Position numbers and translations under genes: made by a program. From positions 523,014 through 587,013 of the forward strand of contig JAQTTB010000001.1 in the NCBI GenBank assembly GCA_028710985.1: 64,000 bases of DNA. The letters are read 5' to 3'. Under the pieces are notes generated by a model. It did no database searches. It was not told the DNA's origin and saw only the letters and a list, made by a program, of their open reading frames with translations. The stretch's first letter is position 1; each line of letters opens with the position of its first letter. The stretch is from Patescibacteria group bacterium (lineage in GTDB: Bacteria; Patescibacteriota; Patescibacteriia; JAHJFT01). Positions 44,048 through 48,574 of this stretch are shown here, one piece after another.

Positions 44048-44452
44048 ATGGCAGAAGAGAAAAAAGACGTCGTGGTTCCGGAAAAATTCAAGAAGCTCGT
44101 TGAGGAAGTTGAAAAAATGAGCGTACTTGATCTCTCGGAACTCGTTAGCATTCTTGAGGATAAATTCGGCGTTTCGGCCGCCGCTCCGGCAGTTGCCGTT
44201 GCCGCCGCCGCTCCAGTCGCCGCCGAAGCCGCCGATGAAAAGACCGAGTTCAATCTTGAACTCCTTGAAGCCGGCGCCAACAAGATCAACGTGATTAAGG
44301 TGGTTCGTGAAGTCACGGGTTTAGGCCTCGCCGATGCCAAGGCCATCGTTGACAGCGCACCGAAGATAGTGAAAGAAGCCATGCCAAAGGCTGATGCCGA
44401 AGCCGCCAAAAAGAAGATTGAGGAAGCCGGCGGAAAAGCAGCTCTCAAATAA
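44048..44452 (+). CDS. rplL: 50S ribosomal protein L7/L12
   Basis: 134 aa. Ala-rich hinge and C-terminal domain [24 protein letters not shown]. Confidence 0.96.
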
Positions 44453-44459
44453 TTGGTTA

Positions 44460-44504
44460 CAAAATAAAAAAAGAACGGCCGTGTAATTATGCGGCCGTTC
44501 TTTT
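44460..44504. repeat. left copy of the duplicated terminator hairpin flanking the RT island
   Basis: CAAAATAAAAAAAGAACGGCCG (22/22 identical to 46293..46314), then a variable loop and GGCCGTTCTTTT. Serves as the rplL terminator. Confidence 0.85.
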
Positions 44505-44513
44505 GATTTTTTT

Positions 44514-44542
44514 AAAAAAAGAGGCATCGCGTTTGCGATGCC
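44514..44542 (-). terminator. intrinsic terminator of the RT gene
   Basis: Stem GGCATCGC / GCGATGCC (44523..44530 / 44535..44542) followed on the minus strand by a T-run (plus-strand A-run 44514..44520). Lies 13 nt after the RT stop. Confidence 0.7.
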
Positions 44543-44554
44543 CGAGCGGCGTAG

Positions 44555-45460
44555 TTAAATACCGAGTTTTCTTAATGCCCTCAGTCCGTTAAAGCGGTCG
44601 ACGAGCTTGGTTTCAGTGCGGTTGTGCGGAGCACAGTATTCGGTCGCCCCCCAGAAAGCGCCCATCATGCCAGCGGCCTGGGCAAAATTTGCACGGCCGC
44701 GTTTGACCGAGTACAGGCGGCCGCGTATCTTGCGCAGATAGTGCCGCGGGATAAAGATGCGGCTGGTCTTATCCATGGCAATGCCGTTGATGACCACCGG
44801 AGCCTTTTGGATGTCGCGGACAATGGATTTCTTATGGTTGATCTGGAATCCAGCCGCGAGAATGATGCGCCGTATCATCTGCCGCTTTCTTTTGCCGATC
44901 GGTTCAGTCGCCGAAAAGGTCAGGTCGTCGAGATAGCGCGTATAGATGATGCCGTGGCGCCGGCAGAATTCGCCGAGCGGCCGGTCAAGAAGTTCGCCGG
45001 CATAGCGGTTGGCAAGATCCGGCGAAGCCGGCGCGCCGGTTGCGAGCCCACCCTCGTCTGCTATGCAGTACTTATTAAGAAAGGCGAGAAGCCCTGTCTC
45101 GTCCTCCATCAGCCGTTCGTCAAGATTCATGAGTATCCCGGCGAGCCGCTCGGCGTCCACGCTCGGATAGAAATTGTGGATGTCGGTGAGGTAGAAAAAG
45201 CGGTTGCCGCGGTGCCGGAGCACATTTTTCTTGGGGGATGAGCCGCGCATCGCGCCGGTGGCGTGCGGCAGGGGATGGTGCTCGAGAAGGTGGCGCCGCA
45301 AGTAAAAGATTAGCCCGCGGTGGACCTGGCGCATCGCGTTATTTGGCGCGTAGAGCGTGCGCATTTTTACGGTCTTCGCTACCGGATTTACGTCTCTGTA
45401 GGTAAATTTGTTGAACCCCGGAGTCCCATCTATGTTTTTCAGAATTATATCAAAGAGCAT
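44555..45460 (-). CDS. retron-type reverse transcriptase (stand-alone, 301 aa)
   Basis: ATG 45460 with AAGGAGG 6 nt upstream. RT motifs in order: RTLYAPNNAMRQVHRGL (1), ATGAMRGSSPKKNVLRH (2, NAxxH-like NVLRH), FFYLTDIHNFYPSV (A), GLATGAPASPDLANRY (B), YTRYLDDLTFS (C), GFQINHKKS (D/E), VVINGIAMD (retron VTG position). Confidence 0.88.
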   Translation of the reverse strand: MLFDIILKNIDGTPGFNKFTYRDVNPVAKTVKMRTLYAPNNAMRQVHRGLIFYLRRHLLEHHPLPHATGAMRGSSPKKNVLRHRGNRFFYLTDIHNFYPSVDAERLAGILMNLDERLMEDETGLLAFLNKYCIADEGGLATGAPASPDLANRYAGELLDRPLGEFCRRHGIIYTRYLDDLTFSATEPIGKRKRQMIRRIILAAGFQINHKKSIVRDIQKAPVVINGIAMDKTSRIFIPRHYLRKIRGRLYSVKRGRANFAQAAGMMGAFWGATEYCAPHNRTETKLVDRFNGLRALRKLGI

Positions 45461-45492
45461 GGCGCCCTCCTTATAGATTTTTGTGTAGGTTG

Positions 45493-45521
45493 ATTTTAGT
45501 ACAGCGCCGAATAAAATGCAA
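45493..45521 (-). promoter_or_regulatory. sigma70-like promoter of the RT gene
   Basis: Minus strand: TTGCAT (45521..45516), 17-nt spacer, TAAAAT (45498..45493). Located between the copy-A terminator and the RT RBS. Confidence 0.55.
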
Positions 45522-45538
45522 GTAAATTTTTTTGGTAT

Positions 45539-45569
45539 AAAAAACGCATCAAACCAGGGGTTTGACGCG
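45539..45569 (-). terminator. intrinsic terminator ending ncRNA copy A
   Basis: 11-bp stem (45545..45555 / 45559..45569) plus U-run (plus-strand A-run 45539..45544). The one non-Watson-Crick position is G-U on the minus strand but A-C on the plus strand. Confidence 0.75.
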
Positions 45570-45914
45570 AAGGGAGAAACCCGATTTTCATCGGGCAGTG
45601 AATTCACAGCGGCGGGTTGGCCAAGTTCGTTGCCCGATTCTGGGTTCTGCGGACAACGATCAAGAGAACAGACTTTGCCGCTGAGGCTTCGATGCAGGGC
45701 CGAAACGGCAGCGCCGAGGCCGCAGGCCGGGGCGCCCTCTGTGCCGAAAGAAGAAGAGAAGGGGCGGATACTATGGCAATTTCCGTTTCCGGAAATCCCG
45801 CTGGCGCACCTTGATGCGCCAACCCTCGTGGGCAAGAGCACTTTGGCGTCCAGCCAGAACCAGGAAACCGTCTTGGCCAACCCGGACTGGACTTGGCTTT
45901 ATCCTATCATAAAC
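45539..45914 (-). ncRNA. RT-associated structured RNA, copy A (RT-proximal)
   Basis: Ends in hairpin plus U-run (45539..45569). Shares helices with copy B. 13-bp long-range helix 45613..45625 / 45872..45884. The 5' end is not determined. Confidence 0.6.
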
Positions 45915-45947
45915 AAAAAAACGCATCAAACCAGGGGGTTTGATGCG
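45915..45947 (-). terminator. intrinsic terminator ending ncRNA copy B
   Basis: Perfect 11-bp stem CGCATCAAACC / GGTTTGATGCG (45922..45932 / 45937..45947) plus a 7-nt U-run on the minus strand. Confidence 0.8.
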
Positions 45948-46292
45948 AAGAGAGAGAGTCCCGACTCGGTCGGGAAGAAAGTGCAGCGGCGGGTTTGAGT
46001 CATTGTCCGCAAGGGACTTTCCGGGCATGGGAGCTTGCCGCTGAAGATACCCGTGGCGTCCGAGGGCACTGAACAACGGGCCGAATCAGCCACTGCGGCC
46101 GCTGATCCGCCTCATGCAGATACCAACGGGAGCGCTTCGGGTTGCCCAGGGGCGATGGGGTACTGTTCAAAGCCCTGGTTTAACCCTTTGGCGCACCTGA
46201 AATGCGCCAAGACGATGAGCACCGAGGATCTCACCCGGAATGAACTAGCTCAAACCCAGCCAAGGTGGCTATGAAGAGGGTAGCATAAAATT
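45915..46292 (-). ncRNA. RT-associated structured RNA, copy B (RT-distal)
   Basis: Ends in hairpin plus U-run (45915..45947). 9-bp long-range helix 45991..45999 / 46249..46257, at the position equivalent to copy A's helix but with a different sequence. The 5' end is not determined. Confidence 0.6.
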
Positions 46293-46336
46293 CAAAATAA
46301 AAAAAGAACGGCCGCGATATCGTGGGCCGTTCTTTT
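46293..46336. repeat. right copy of the duplicated terminator hairpin flanking the RT island
   Basis: Same 22-mer and same 3' arm as 44460..44504. Serves as terminator of the 745-aa gene on the minus strand. Confidence 0.85.
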
Positions 46337-48574
46337 TTATTCGCTGAATCCGAAATTCCAGACGCCGTTGTCGGCCAGCACCCAGATTTGGCGTGCCGTG
46401 CGATCGATGTAAAAACTTTTTATATTCTGCAGGTCGTTCAGGAGGTATTGAGTTTTGAGTTTACCGTCCTTGGCCAGTACTACAACACGTTTTCCGGCCG
46501 GGTCAAGAATAAATATATTGTCCGTACCCTCGGTCGTCCAAATTTGCGTCGCGCCCGTCAGCGCGGGATCAATGGTCGTAGCCGACCAGGATTGTTTTTC
46601 ACCGGTATAGAATTTATAAATTTCACCATTTGATTTCAGGGCGTAAATCGAGCCGTCAATCGTAATGGCGACTGCGTCCGAAAGATTGACATTCGCAGTT
46701 TTAATCCAGGCCGCGCCGGCCGCGAGCCCGGAATCGGGCGAGCGGTGCTGCTTAAATATTTGGTTCGCCGTGGTGTCCAAGACATAAATATTTGAATTCC
46801 AGCCGGCCGCGTCAATAAAGCTCTTTTGTTCGGCCGCGGCGGCGAGGGGAACGTCCCTCCACGAAAGTCCGGCCACGTCAATTTCCGAAGCCCCTGGGCG
46901 CTGGTCGAAAACCAAATATGAATTATCGCCGGATTTGTAAATCGCGGTAATGCTTTGTATATCCGCATTTTCCCAGTCAACTTCCTGCCAGGCATTCGCG
47001 TCGTCGCGCCAGACATAAAGTTCTTTTGCCCCGGAAAGAATCAAAGTTTTATCGGCGTTTCGCAGGAGATAACGAAAGTTAATCGTCTGGCCTTCGGCGC
47101 TGAGCGGCATGTCGGCGACTTTCTCTAAATCGTTTGGAATGACTTCATGGCGGAGCTCTTGGCGTAAAATATCAATTTGGGCGAGAAGTCCCTGTTTGAT
47201 TTCGCGCTGATCGCGCTTTGCTTCCGGTAGCGACTGGATTGCGGATAGCGCTTGGCTCACAAGCTCACGCGTGCGTTCCTCGTCGCCGTAGATCAGGGTA
47301 CTCTCGGCCTCGTCTTTTATTTGAGTGATCTCAATCACTTTATTATTATAAACCGCCTCGTCTTCGCGTGCATGTTTCCGATAGTTGAGATAAATCAGGC
47401 TCCATGCAAAAAGTAGCACCAGGATAAGGGCGATGATAAAAACCGATTTATTTTTCTTGCCGAGATGGCTGAACCAGCCGACCGAGCGGTCTCCGGTTTC
47501 CTGGGCATCGCTCTTATAGCTCGCGATGGTTTCGGCGCGTTTGCCGTGGAAGTTCGTAATGATAAAAAATAAGTTTTTGAAGAAGCGGCCGGTGATGCCG
47601 ATTGCGCGGAGCGTGATGGCACCGATCCAAATAAAGAATTTGGCAATGCTCCGGGGGAGTTCGCGCGGGGTTGGAGCGATTTTTTCCTCATATTTCGGGC
47701 CGCGTATTGGTATCAGTCGTGAAATTACCGCAGTGAGCCCAGCCCAAATCTTTGAGGCAAACCCAGTGCCGCCGCCTAAAAGATATCGGTCGGTTTCCGC
47801 GGTAGTCGCCTTAAGATGCTCAAGCGAACCTCGGAAATTCTTCGGTGCCGCCGCTTCGGTGCCGACCGGGATAAGTTCTTCATAATGCTGGATGATAATG
47901 GCCGTATATCCGCCGCGCAGACTGCCGTGCAAAAGTTCATTGCGCAGATATTCGACGGATTCGACCGGTTTTTTCGCGGTTACAATCGGCAACAGCCGTT
48001 CTTCGGGGAAGGCTTCGGCCAGTTCGGAGTTTGAGATTATTATGGCATCCCCGCTTTGGATGGAGCCGTACATTACATTTTCAAAAATTTTAACGGGATT
48101 AAAATTATCCGGATCGGATTGAACGTTCTTCGTAAGATCAAAAACGCGGTAACCTTTGCCATCCTGCTTCTGGAAAAACATCATTTTATTCTGGCCGATC
48201 GCGGAGAACGAAAGGTCCGTGCCGGAGCAAGCGGCGATTAAGATATTCAATTTCTTAAGATCCACCGGATTGGATTCTTTGGAGATAAAATCCGTGATAT
48301 TTTTATTGGTCGCCTGTAGGGATTTTTCAAACTCCGCGCCAAAGTCAATGCCATGCTCTTCCTGATAAAATTTTTCAATGCCGTCGATAAAGTTTTCGGT
48401 CAAACGTTCGTAGGCTGGATGGATGGAGTCGATTTTAATAATGCCAAAAATAGATCCGCCTTCATGCGCCGCACCCGGTGGAATTTCAAAATTAAAAACG
48501 CGGTTAATGCATTGGCGGTTCGTTGCGCTTTCTAGGAAAAGCTCGTTTATGAGTATCTCCGGCTTCTTTGACAT
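46337..48574 (-). CDS. large hypothetical membrane protein with C-terminal repeat (beta-propeller-like) domain
   Basis: 745 aa. Cytoplasmic N-domain, two TM helices mid-protein. The C-terminal half has recurring hydrophobic-Y/W-V-L-D type strands (IYVLD, IYALK, IFILD, IWVLAD). Confidence 0.75.
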   Translation of the reverse strand: MSKKPEILINELFLESATNRQCINRVFNFEIPPGAAHEGGSIFGIIKIDSIHPAYERLTENFIDGIEKFYQEEHGIDFGAEFEKSLQATNKNITDFISKESNPVDLKKLNILIAACSGTDLSFSAIGQNKMMFFQKQDGKGYRVFDLTKNVQSDPDNFNPVKIFENVMYGSIQSGDAIIISNSELAEAFPEERLLPIVTAKKPVESVEYLRNELLHGSLRGGYTAIIIQHYEELIPVGTEAAAPKNFRGSLEHLKATTAETDRYLLGGGTGFASKIWAGLTAVISRLIPIRGPKYEEKIAPTPRELPRSIAKFFIWIGAITLRAIGITGRFFKNLFFIITNFHGKRAETIASYKSDAQETGDRSVGWFSHLGKKNKSVFIIALILVLLFAWSLIYLNYRKHAREDEAVYNNKVIEITQIKDEAESTLIYGDEERTRELVSQALSAIQSLPEAKRDQREIKQGLLAQIDILRQELRHEVIPNDLEKVADMPLSAEGQTINFRYLLRNADKTLILSGAKELYVWRDDANAWQEVDWENADIQSITAIYKSGDNSYLVFDQRPGASEIDVAGLSWRDVPLAAAAEQKSFIDAAGWNSNIYVLDTTANQIFKQHRSPDSGLAAGAAWIKTANVNLSDAVAITIDGSIYALKSNGEIYKFYTGEKQSWSATTIDPALTGATQIWTTEGTDNIFILDPAGKRVVVLAKDGKLKTQYLLNDLQNIKSFYIDRTARQIWVLADNGVWNFGFSE

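What the first reader, a model, noticed from the sequence alone, without database searches (positions are those of the whole stretch)
44460..46340. Self-contained reverse transcriptase plus dual-ncRNA island with no effector gene
Seen: rplL (+, ends 44452) and a convergent 745-aa gene (-, ends 46337) are separated by 1.8 kb that holds a single credible CDS, a 301-aa reverse transcriptase (44555..45460, minus). It has a strong RBS, its own promoter (45493..45521) and its own terminator (44514..44542). Its motif series is RTLYAP..MRQVH, ATGAMRGSSPKKNVLRH, FYLTDIHNFYPSV, GLATGAPASPDLANRY, YTRYLDDLTFS, GFQINHKKS, VVINGIAMD. Established knowledge: this matches the order and wording of retron-clade RTs (about 300 aa, RYADD[IL]TFS, GFxINxxK, VTG region, NAxxH). 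It lacks the DGR-type [ILV]GxxxSQ motif and any group II intron maturase or endonuclease domain. Retrons and most defence-associated RTs come with an effector protein or a fused effector domain. Here the rest of the island is non-coding and is filled by two structured RNAs on the RT strand. Inference: this is either a minimal RT-plus-ncRNA system whose reverse-transcription product is itself the functional output, or a new retron-like type. Either would be notable in what looks like a reduced genome.
Basis: partly seen in the sequence, partly recalled or inferred. Interest (0 to 1): 0.9.

Follow-up and report, generated by a model that had tools for sequence, protein, structure and literature searches.

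The report
Effector-less retron-like RT with duplicated ncRNA
A small retron-type reverse transcriptase sits beside two copies of a previously uncatalogued structured RNA, with no partner toxin gene here or in about 90 related loci from ultra-small (CPR) bacteria, so it adds a large lineage to the poorly understood stand-alone retrons.

Summary
Window 44555-45460(-) encodes a 301-aa reverse transcriptase (RT) with an AAGGAGG ribosome-binding site and its own terminator. The 0.8 kb upstream holds two structured RNAs on the RT strand, each ending in an intrinsic terminator.

- The RT belongs to the retron clade. Its best PADLOC, NCBIfam and PDB matches are all retron RTs, and it carries retron-type region X and region Y motifs in variant form. 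It is not a DGR or group II intron RT, and probably not UG/Abi.
- The two RNAs are diverged paralogues of one RNA family that Rfam does not contain.
- The unit layout is: long 5' arm X, two covarying hairpins (P2, P3), a polypyrimidine tract, a long hairpin (P4), an invariant CCUCAGCG, arm X' (pairs with X), then CGCUGA. This mirrors the retron a1 / msr / msd / a2 plan.
- A covariance model built without any window sequence finds unit B. It also finds the RNA next to homologous RTs in 52 of 99 other loci, almost always on the RT strand, in 1-4 copies, upstream or downstream of the RT.
- The RT family is large (about 500 clusters at 50% identity), nearly all from CPR/Patescibacteria, chromosomal, and has no conserved neighbouring gene.

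Stand-alone retron cassettes are already documented, so this is a new variant of a known kind. Its function is untested.

The parts
44555..45460 (-). 301-aa retron-type reverse transcriptase (stop codon included)
   Evidence: ORF and motifs. Pfam RVT_1 1.6e-10. Best PADLOC matches are retron RT models at 1e-34 to 1e-30. NCBIfam retron_St85_RT 1.9e-33, below its cut-off. Family profile against PDB: Ec83 4.9e-30, Ec86 1.9e-28. YLDD is invariant in 40 homologues.
45466..45472 (-). Ribosome-binding site AAGGAGG, 5 nt before the ATG
   Evidence: Read directly from the sequence.
45493..45521 (-). Possible RT promoter, TTGCAT-17-TAAAAT (weak -35)
   Evidence: Sequence. Not called on the minus strand by the consensus scan.
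44515..44543 (-). Intrinsic terminator of the RT gene
   Evidence: 9-bp stem, 6 GC pairs, T run.
45604..45888 (-). ncRNA unit B core. X 45884-45854; P2-P3 45827-45768; polypyrimidine tract 45764-45746; P4 about 45745-45690; UCAGCG 45684-45679; X' 45643-45613; CGCUG 45611-45607.
   Evidence: Fold z -4.4. Inverted repeat I1, 31 nt. X:X' duplex -54.9 kcal/mol, z -4.1. Covariance model R1, built only from other genomes, hits 45769-45827(-) at 18.2 bits, E 2.8e-4. R2 hit. Polypyrimidine tract.
45539..45603 (-). 3' tail of unit B: small hairpin 45595-45580 and intrinsic terminator 45569-45539
   Evidence: The 40-nt terminator module is 92.5% identical to that of unit A.
45981..46264 (-). ncRNA unit A core, a diverged copy. 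X 46262-46249; P2 46210-46188; P3 with an insertion about 46186-46139; UCAGCG 46044-46039; X' outer part 45999-45988; CGCUG 45988-45984. It has no polypyrimidine tract.
   Evidence: Fold z -3.4. Aligns with unit B. Same motif order. Not detected by R1 or R2. Lacks the polypyrimidine tract.
45916..45980 (-). 3' tail of unit A: small hairpin 45974-45960 and intrinsic terminator 45947-45916
44460..44508 (.). Bidirectional terminator hairpin after rplL; left copy of the 49-nt direct repeat that brackets the island
   Evidence: Repeat D1, 76% identity. The core AAAGAACGGCCG occurs without mismatch only at the two island borders in 64 kb.
46293..46341 (.). Bidirectional terminator hairpin after the 745-aa gene; right copy of the bracketing repeat

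Best explanation
This is a stand-alone retron-like cassette from a CPR-specific clade: a minimal retron-type RT plus its cognate primer-template RNA, here duplicated in tandem.

Shown by the analysis:
- The RT class.
- The RNA family, its strand and its linkage to the RT.
- The RNA architecture: X, P2, P3, polypyrimidine tract, P4, CCUCAGCG, X', CGCUGA.
- The absence of any conserved partner gene.
- A chromosomal, housekeeping genomic context.

Inferred mechanism:
- X:X' acts as the retron a1/a2 helix. P2 and P3 act as the msr hairpins that the RT recognises.
- The RT primes from the 2'-OH of a conserved G in the 5' junction. The candidate is the UGAGG motif, which can pair with CCUCA.
- The RT copies P4 back to the polypyrimidine tract. 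This would yield a roughly 60-130-nt hairpin ssDNA joined to the RNA (about 86 nt for unit B).
- The invariant CCUCAGCG can pair either with the 5' junction or with the 3' CGCUGA. This suggests a conformational switch at the initiation site.

With no effector in cis, the output would be either the RT-RNA-DNA particle itself or a complex with a partner encoded elsewhere.
For: RT class:
- PADLOC's top 25 hits are all retron RT models.
- NCBIfam gives retron_St85_RT at 1.9e-33, against Drt2 at 5.4e-6 and group II at 5.8e-5.
- PDB retron RTs cover positions 31-291 of the 300-position profile.
- Region X reads N79-V-L-R-H83 and region Y reads I-N-G226, and the key residues are conserved across the family. 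The motif definitions come from PMC7736814.

RNA:
- P2 and P3 show changes on both sides in 18 of 18 pairs, with 92.5% of cells paired.
- 65 hits lie on the RT strand and 2 on the opposite strand.
- X:X' beats shuffled X' with a median z of -3.8. In 27 of 42 units none of 40 shuffles did as well, and the X sequences are unrelated between loci.
- A polypyrimidine tract of 10 nt or more follows P3 in 40 of 57 units, against 5% of control windows.
- The 5' and 3' hexamers show compensatory variants: UCAGCU/AGCUGA, UCAGCA/UGCUGA, UCAACA/UGUUGA and UCAACG/CGUUGA.

No effector.

Family size: 506 representative clusters at E <= 1e-30. The 150 listed are mostly 290-350 aa.

Not phage-borne.

Synteny: the cassette sits at the same site as in L014, where RT identity is 45% but rplJ is only 33% and the 745-aa protein only 25%.
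Against: - No cDNA or transcript data exist for any family member.
- No single branching G could be pinned down. The UGAGG:CCUCA pairing is perfect in only 18 of 38 units.
- The UCAGCG:CGCUGA pairing cannot coexist sterically with a full 30-bp X:X' helix, so the folding model is incomplete.
- Canonical retrons have one ncRNA upstream of the RT. Here there are 1-4 copies, and about 15 loci have it downstream.
- Unit A lacks the polypyrimidine tract and is not detected by the covariance models, so it may be decaying.
- The RT scores below NCBIfam's curated cut-offs for named retron families.
- The pair counts were made on an alignment fitted to the model.
Confidence: 0.55

Rival explanations
1. 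This is a tripartite retron whose effector is encoded in trans. The RT-ncRNA-msDNA complex would guard or sequester a toxin located elsewhere in the genome, and the system would act in abortive-infection defence like classical retrons.
For: All experimentally characterised defensive retrons use an effector. Mestre et al. raise exactly this possibility for orphan retrons (PMC7736814). Only 64 kb of a 744-kb contig could be inspected.
Against: No conserved partner lies within +-4 kb in 33 loci or +-1.5 kb in 92 loci. No retron-effector family appears among 57 window proteins scanned with PADLOC. The context is housekeeping rather than a defence island: the rplKAJL region, dnaE, mreB and gatB. 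The position is conserved across deep divergence.
Confidence: 0.2
2. The system works by a non-retron, product-based mechanism like DRT2 or DRT9. The RT would use the ncRNA to make a repetitive or homopolymeric cDNA, for example from the polypyrimidine tract or by template jumping between the CUGAG-like repeats. That cDNA would itself be the effector.
For: The architecture is RT plus ncRNA only. A conserved polypyrimidine tract is present. Similar short sequences occur at the 5' junction and the 3' tail, both complementary to CCUCAGCG. There is weak similarity to Drt2 and Drt3a.
Against: The RT is far closer to retron RTs (1e-30) than to Drt2/Drt3a (1e-6). No consistent stop-free circular reading frame exists: none in 22 of 41 units in sense and 33 of 41 in antisense. 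The pyrimidine tracts are mixed U/C and differ in sequence between loci, not homopolymers. X:X' does not bring the two repeats together.
Confidence: 0.12
3. This is a decaying retron remnant. The effector was lost, and the RT and RNAs are non-functional relics.
For: Unit A is degenerate. CPR genomes are reduced. The RT branch of Ec107 is thought to have lost its partner (PMC7736814).
Against: The RT ORF is intact. The catalytic YLDD and 19 other columns are invariant in 40 sequences at 40-50% identity. There are hundreds of clusters, mostly close to 300 aa. The RNA helices are maintained by compensatory changes. The cassette is kept at the same site across deep divergence.
Confidence: 0.05
4. 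The family belongs to the UG/Abi class 2 group UG38, a small CPR-restricted group of RTs without extra domains, rather than to retrons.
For: UG38 is reported from Parcubacteria, Nealsonbacteria and Atribacteria and has no associated domain (PMC9226505). Class 2 UG RTs often pair with ncRNAs.
Against: No UG38 sequences were available, so no direct comparison was possible. All the best profile and PDB matches are retron RTs, with UG-type Drt2/Drt3a about 20 orders of magnitude weaker. The retron region X and Y signatures are present.
Confidence: 0.08

Closest known systems
Stand-alone ('orphan') retron cassettes: Retron-Eco5 (Ec107) branch of RT clade 2 and the Actinobacteria-restricted clade 11 (Mestre et al. 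2020, PMC7736814)
   Same: A retron-type RT of about 300 aa plus an adjacent ncRNA, with no associated effector gene. Vertical inheritance is suspected for some. PADLOC RT_Ec107-like scores 1.3e-29.
   Different: The taxon is different (CPR). No single retron type is clearly closest: types II-A, III-A, VI, X, XI and XII all score about 1e-30 to 1e-34. The ncRNA is much larger (about 200-290 nt plus tail), occurs in 1-4 copies, can lie downstream of the RT, and carries the CCUCAGCG/CGCUGA pair and a polypyrimidine tract.
Canonical retrons such as Ec86 (Eco1), Ec83, Ec78 and St85
   Same: Same RT fold and family by sequence. Region X and region Y motifs are present. The ncRNA plan matches: terminal inverted repeats enclose short hairpins and then a long hairpin.
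   Different: There is no effector. The closing helix is very long (about 30 bp or more). The AGC-type branching G is not identifiable. Two mutually exclusive pairings involve the invariant octamer. The RNA units are tandem and, in this window, have their own terminators.
DRT2 (UG2) and DRT9 (UG28): RT plus ncRNA defence systems without a protein effector
   Same: A two-component RT plus structured ncRNA system in which the cDNA product is the functional output.
   Different: The RT clade is different (Drt2 5.4e-6, far below its cut-off). No never-ending ORF was found. There is no homopolymeric template tract.

Membership tests
Retron | RT groups with retron/retron-like RTs by sequence | tested here: met
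   PADLOC retron RT models at 1.6e-34 to 1e-23 occupy all top 25 ranks. NCBIfam retron_St85_RT 1.9e-33. PDB retron RTs Ec83, Ec86, Ec78, St85, Ec67, Kva2 and Eco8 are the best hits. No full phylogeny was run.
Retron | Region X NAxxH between RT2 and RT3, and region Y VTG in RT7 (PMC7736814) | tested here: met
   Both occur in variant form. Region X is K-N79-V-L-R-H83 (H invariant, N at least 90%). Region Y is V-I-N-G226, or I-T-G in some relatives (G invariant).
Retron | Adjacent same-strand ncRNA whose ends pair (a1/a2) and enclose 1-3 short hairpins plus a long hairpin | tested here: met
   X:X' duplexes. P2 and P3 covariation. P4 long hairpin in minimum-free-energy folds. Strand bias of 65 to 2.
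Retron | Conserved branching guanosine at the inner end of a1/a2 | tested here: inconclusive
   A conserved UGAGG lies in the 5' junction and a CAGCy motif occurs in a subfamily. The pairing with CCUCA is perfect in only 18 of 38 units. No unique G could be assigned.
Retron | Single ncRNA immediately upstream of the RT | tested here: not met
   Copy number is 1-4. About 15 loci have the RNA downstream of the RT.
Retron | Associated effector gene or fused effector domain (tripartite system) | tested here: not met
   No conserved neighbour. The RT is about 300 aa with no extra domain. Stand-alone exceptions are known.
Retron | Production of branched multicopy ssDNA (msDNA) | not testable with these tools
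   This needs an experiment.
Diversity-generating retroelement | Template repeat with a near-identical variable repeat in a target gene; DGR-type RT motif | tested here: not met
   No copy of any island segment occurs elsewhere in 64 kb beyond chance 10-17-mers. RT motif 4 is GAPASPDL, not GxxxSQ. The likely DGR-type RT entry in PDB (8ub7, labelled only 'Reverse transcriptase') scores just 1.8e-4.
Group II intron | RT with maturase/X domain inside a ribozyme with domains I-VI | tested here: not met
   TIGR04416 scores 5.8e-5 against a cut-off of 300 bits. No intron RNA family appears even at E <= 10. A 301-aa protein has no room for a maturase domain.
UG/Abi class 2 (DRT2, DRT9, UG38) | RT groups with UG/Abi RTs | tested here: not met
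   Drt2 5.4e-6 and Drt3a 9.2e-8, both far below cut-offs. PDB Drt2 scores 3.7e-7 against 1e-30 for retron RTs. UG38 itself could not be compared.

The most novel reading that the evidence does not exclude
A CPR-wide, vertically retained RT-ncRNA module works without any protein effector. The RT would turn each RNA unit of a 1-4-unit array into a distinct ssDNA, and that RNA-DNA-RT particle would itself be the functional product. It could serve a domesticated, non-defence role such as nucleic-acid sequestration or regulation, or a role linked to DNA uptake and recombination in these episymbionts. It could alternatively give product-based immunity. A CCUCAGCG conformational switch would gate initiation.
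Probability: 0.3. Interest if true: 0.85.

Novelty: new variant of a known kind. Interest (0 to 1): 0.6.

Why it matters
What effector-less retrons do is an open question. This family offers a large, diverse and compact test set: about 500 clusters at 50% identity, a 300-aa RT, and an RNA with clear covariation. The organisms have tiny genomes in which useless genes are rarely kept.

The RNA class is absent from Rfam, and its features are unlike canonical msr-msd. These include tandem arrays, placement downstream of the RT in some loci, a polypyrimidine tract, and two mutually exclusive pairings of an invariant octamer.

If the RT makes ssDNA, it is also one of the smallest retron-type RTs with a well-defined cognate RNA. 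That could interest people building retron-based editing tools.

Tried and rejected
- **Rfam:** no family reached gathering score anywhere in the 64 kb. Between 44400 and 46400 only terminator-like chance hits appeared.
- **nhmmer with the two window units against 33 loci:** nothing found. Conservation lies in structure and short motifs, not primary sequence.
- **DGR:** rejected. No VR-like copy exists.
- **Group II intron:** rejected.
- **DRT2-like 'never-ending ORF':** stop-free circular frames are inconsistent and are explained by pyrimidine-rich composition.
- **The 441-aa extended ORF through unit B:** rejected as the true gene, because homologues start at the ATG.
- **Conserved effector, including small ORFs of 30 aa or more:** none found. 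One recurring 'ORF' cluster is simply the antisense of the downstream ncRNA.
- **Phage or plasmid-like origin:** no family member in IMG/VR or in GenBank phages.
- **tRNA adjacency as an integration site:** not consistent across loci.
- **Foreign-X' control for X:X':** it was confounded by length differences, so it was replaced by shuffling each unit's own X'.
- **Literature searches** for retrons in CPR, effector-less retrons and RT-CHC2 fusions: nothing describes this family.
- **UG38 sequences:** not obtainable.

Full report
**1. What is in the window**

The 1.8-kb gap lies between rplL (44048-44452, +; Pfam L7/L12, with rplJ upstream) and a 745-aa minus-strand gene with no Pfam domain (46337-48574). 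It contains one credible gene.
- The gene is a 301-aa ORF at 44555-45460(-).
- An AAGGAGG ribosome-binding site sits 5 nt before the ATG.
- An intrinsic terminator follows the gene at 44543-44522 plus a T run.
- The reading frame stays open upstream to a TTG at 45880, and NCBI annotated 350 aa. Forty homologues align from the ATG, so 301 aa is the better call.
- The proposed promoter, TTGCAT-17-TAAAAT, has a good -10 element but only 3 of 6 matches at -35. The scan did not call it on the minus strand.

**2. The RT is retron-type**

- Pfam sees only a generic RVT_1 domain.
- PADLOC's top 25 hits are all retron RT models. RT_II-A scores 1.6e-34, and types III-A, XII, XI, VI, X and Ec107-like score about 1e-30. 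No single type stands out.
- NCBIfam gives retron_St85_RT at 1.9e-33, against Drt3a at 9e-8, Drt2 at 5e-6 and group II at 6e-5. All are below the curated cut-offs.
- A family profile searched against PDB hits Ec83 (4.9e-30), Ec86 (1.9e-28), Ec78, St85, Ec67, Kva2 and Eco8 over essentially the full length. Group II, Drt2 and Drt3a score 20 or more orders of magnitude weaker.
- The two signatures that Mestre et al. use for retron RTs are region X (NAxxH) and region Y (VTG) (PMC7736814). Both are present in variant form. Region X is N79-V-L-R-H83, with H invariant. Region Y is I-N-G226, with G invariant and some relatives reading ITG.

**3. The two RNAs are copies of one conserved RNA**

- The upstream 0.8 kb consists of two units of about 380 nt on the RT strand.
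- Each unit ends in a small hairpin and an intrinsic terminator.
- Both fold better than shuffled sequence, with z -3.4 and -4.4.
- Their 40-nt terminator modules are 92.5% identical, although the rest of the units has diverged.

**4. Relatives**

- The protein search found 66 homologues at 40-50% identity. All are about 300 aa, and the named ones are from Patescibacteria. The next hits are ordinary retron RTs at 1e-13.
- An exhaustive profile search found 506 representative clusters (50% identity) at E <= 1e-30. The 150 listed are mostly 290-350 aa.
- I fetched 33 genome loci and 69 metagenome loci. The genome loci, whose records carry organism names, are nearly all CPR: Parcubacteria, Paceibacterota, Saccharibacteria, Kerfeldbacteria and others. 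The metagenome contigs carry no organism names.
- No family member occurs in IMG/VR or in GenBank phages.

**5. RNA architecture from comparison**

Primary sequence is not conserved (nhmmer found nothing), but a fixed plan emerged. The order is 5' arm X, a junction often containing yUGAGG, hairpin P2, hairpin P3, a polypyrimidine tract, long hairpin P4, (rAA)CCUCAGCG, arm X', then CGCUGA.
- X and X' are complementary over about 30 nt or more, yet their sequences are unrelated between loci.
- Each unit's own X' beats shuffled versions of itself, with a median z of -3.8. In 27 of 42 units, none of 40 shuffles did as well.
- P2 and P3 covary. In the 8-sequence seed, 12 of 18 pairs show double changes. 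In 44 sequences, 18 of 18 pairs do, with 92.5% of cells paired against 67.5% when shuffled. That alignment was fitted to the model, which favours the structure.
- A pyrimidine run of 10 nt or more follows P3 in 40 of 57 units, against 5% of control windows.

**6. Independent detection in the window and elsewhere**

- Covariance model R1 was built from eight units of six other genomes, with no window sequence. It hits unit B at 45769-45827(-) with 18.2 bits and E 2.8e-4 in a 3-kb search with filters off.
- The broader model R2 gives 67 hits at E <= 0.1 in 679 kb. Of these, 65 lie on the RT strand and 2 on the opposite strand.
- The RNA is found in 52 of the 99 other loci searched. It lies upstream of the RT in most and downstream in about 15.
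- Copy number is usually one. It is two in L003, L004, L005, L006/L052, L057 and this window, at least three in L011, and four in L008.
- Unit A is not detected. It has an insertion in P3 and no pyrimidine tract, so it looks like the more degenerate copy.

**7. Two mutually exclusive pairings**

- The invariant CCUCAGCG can pair through its CCUCA with the 5' junction UGAGG. UGAAG accompanies CUUCA in some units. The match is perfect in only 18 of 38 units.
- It can also pair through its UCAGCG with the 3' CGCUGA. Compensatory variants support this pairing: UCAGCU/AGCUGA in L005, UCAGCA/UGCUGA in L043 and L056, UCAACA/UGUUGA in L018 and UCAACG/CGUUGA in L006. Three units (L010, L012, L064) have uncompensated changes at the sixth position.
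- The two pairings share the UCA bases. In addition, the second cannot coexist with a full X:X' helix, because the two ends of a 30-bp helix are too far apart. I infer alternative conformers at the likely initiation site. This is inference, not demonstration.

**8. No effector**

- I clustered all ORFs of 80 aa or more within +-4 kb in 33 loci, and all ORFs of 30 aa or more within +-1.5 kb in 92 loci. No partner was shared by more than 7 loci.
- The 7-locus cluster is explained by the zinc-ribbon fusion subfamily described in section 12.
- A 6-locus cluster is the antisense of the downstream RNA.
- In the window, 57 proteins are mostly housekeeping, including dnaE, mreB, gatB, thyA, rodA, gyrB, L1 and L11.
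- PADLOC finds no retron effector family among them.

**9. Inheritance**

- L014 (Parcubacteria SURF_31) carries the cassette at the same place, between the homologue of the 745-aa gene and rplL.
- The flanking proteins are only 25% (745-aa), 33% (rplJ) and 64% (rplL) identical, while the RT is 45% identical.
- That pattern fits long-term vertical retention.
- Other loci have different neighbours, and tRNA adjacency is inconsistent.
- The island here is bracketed by a duplicated 49-nt bidirectional terminator. Its core occurs without mismatch only at the two borders in 64 kb. This suggests insertion into, or duplication of, a terminator.

**10. Interpretation**

The layout of X, P2, P3, P4 and X' mirrors the retron plan of a1, msr hairpins, msd hairpin and a2 (PMC7736814). 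The RT is retron-type. The most economical reading is therefore a stand-alone retron-like cassette that makes an msDNA-like ssDNA from P4.

Departures from canonical retrons:
- Multi-copy arrays of the RNA.
- Placement of the RNA downstream of the RT in some loci.
- A very long closing helix.
- No assignable AGC-type branching G.
- The switch-like octamer.
- No effector.

Stand-alone (msr-msd)-RT cassettes are already recorded for the Ec107 branch and for clade 11, and a non-defence domesticated role has been suggested for them. The absence of an effector is therefore not new in kind.

Rivals considered:
- An effector encoded in trans.
- A DRT2/DRT9-like product mechanism. There is no consistent never-ending ORF, and the pyrimidine tracts are heterogeneous.
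- Decay. This is contradicted by conservation.
- Identity with UG38, which could not be tested directly.

**11. Verdict**

The finding is a large, CPR-specific, effector-less retron-like RT family with a new ncRNA class. I rate it a new variant of a known kind with moderately high interest. Its function and priming chemistry are untested.

**12. Side observation**

A more distant subfamily (L026, L030, L031, L083-L085) has the RT fused at its C-terminus to a DnaG-type CHC2 zinc ribbon (PF01807, 1e-19 to 1e-29). Those loci lack the R2 RNA. I found no description of such a fusion among retron types.

Noticed in passing
window 44460-44508 and 46293-46341: The RT island is bracketed by two copies (76% identical, 49 nt) of the same bidirectional terminator hairpin. 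Its core AAAGAACGGCCG occurs without mismatch only at these two borders in the 64 kb. This may be a footprint of insertion into, or duplication of, the rplL terminator.
   Followed up: partly
L026:4926-6143, L030:4992-6266, L031:4920-6167, L083:2725-4242, L084:2848-4179: A sister subfamily of these CPR RTs is fused at the C-terminus to a DnaG-type CHC2 zinc ribbon (PF01807, E 1e-19 to 1e-29). L058 and L059 have a weak stand-alone zinc-ribbon ORF 1.6 kb downstream. These loci show no hit to the ncRNA model. The fusion is not among the 13 retron types of Mestre et al.
   Followed up: partly
L008:3860-4957; L011:3686-4853; L006:6077-6436: The ncRNA occurs as tandem arrays: four units in L008 and at least three in L011. 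In about 15 loci (for example L006, L042, L049, L066-L069, L077) it lies downstream of the RT rather than upstream.
   Followed up: partly
window 45539-45577 and 45916-45955: The 40-nt terminator modules of the two RNA units are 92.5% identical, while the unit bodies have diverged strongly. This suggests concerted evolution or a constraint on the 3' hairpin.
   Followed up: no
window 44555-45880 (-): The RT reading frame stays open for 140 codons upstream of the ATG, through all of unit B including its terminator. NCBI annotated a 350-aa product. Homologue N-termini argue for the 301-aa start.
   Followed up: yes
L014:4669-5864 compared with window 44555-46264: The RT cassette sits at the same site, between the large membrane-protein homologue and rplL, in a Parcubacteria genome. 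There rplJ is only 33% identical and the 745-aa protein only 25% identical, while the RT is 45% identical.
   Followed up: partly
window 1-64000: No Rfam family reaches its gathering score anywhere in the 64 kb, so Rfam's tRNA model finds no tRNA either (ARAGORN was not run on the window). PADLOC gives isolated hits among window proteins to Cas4-like, mad2, PDC-M05A and dCTPase models.
   Followed up: no
window 45516-45998 (+) and 45771-46076 (-): ORFs of 160 aa and 101 aa overlap the ncRNA units. No counterpart is conserved in related loci, so they are treated as non-coding.
   Followed up: partly
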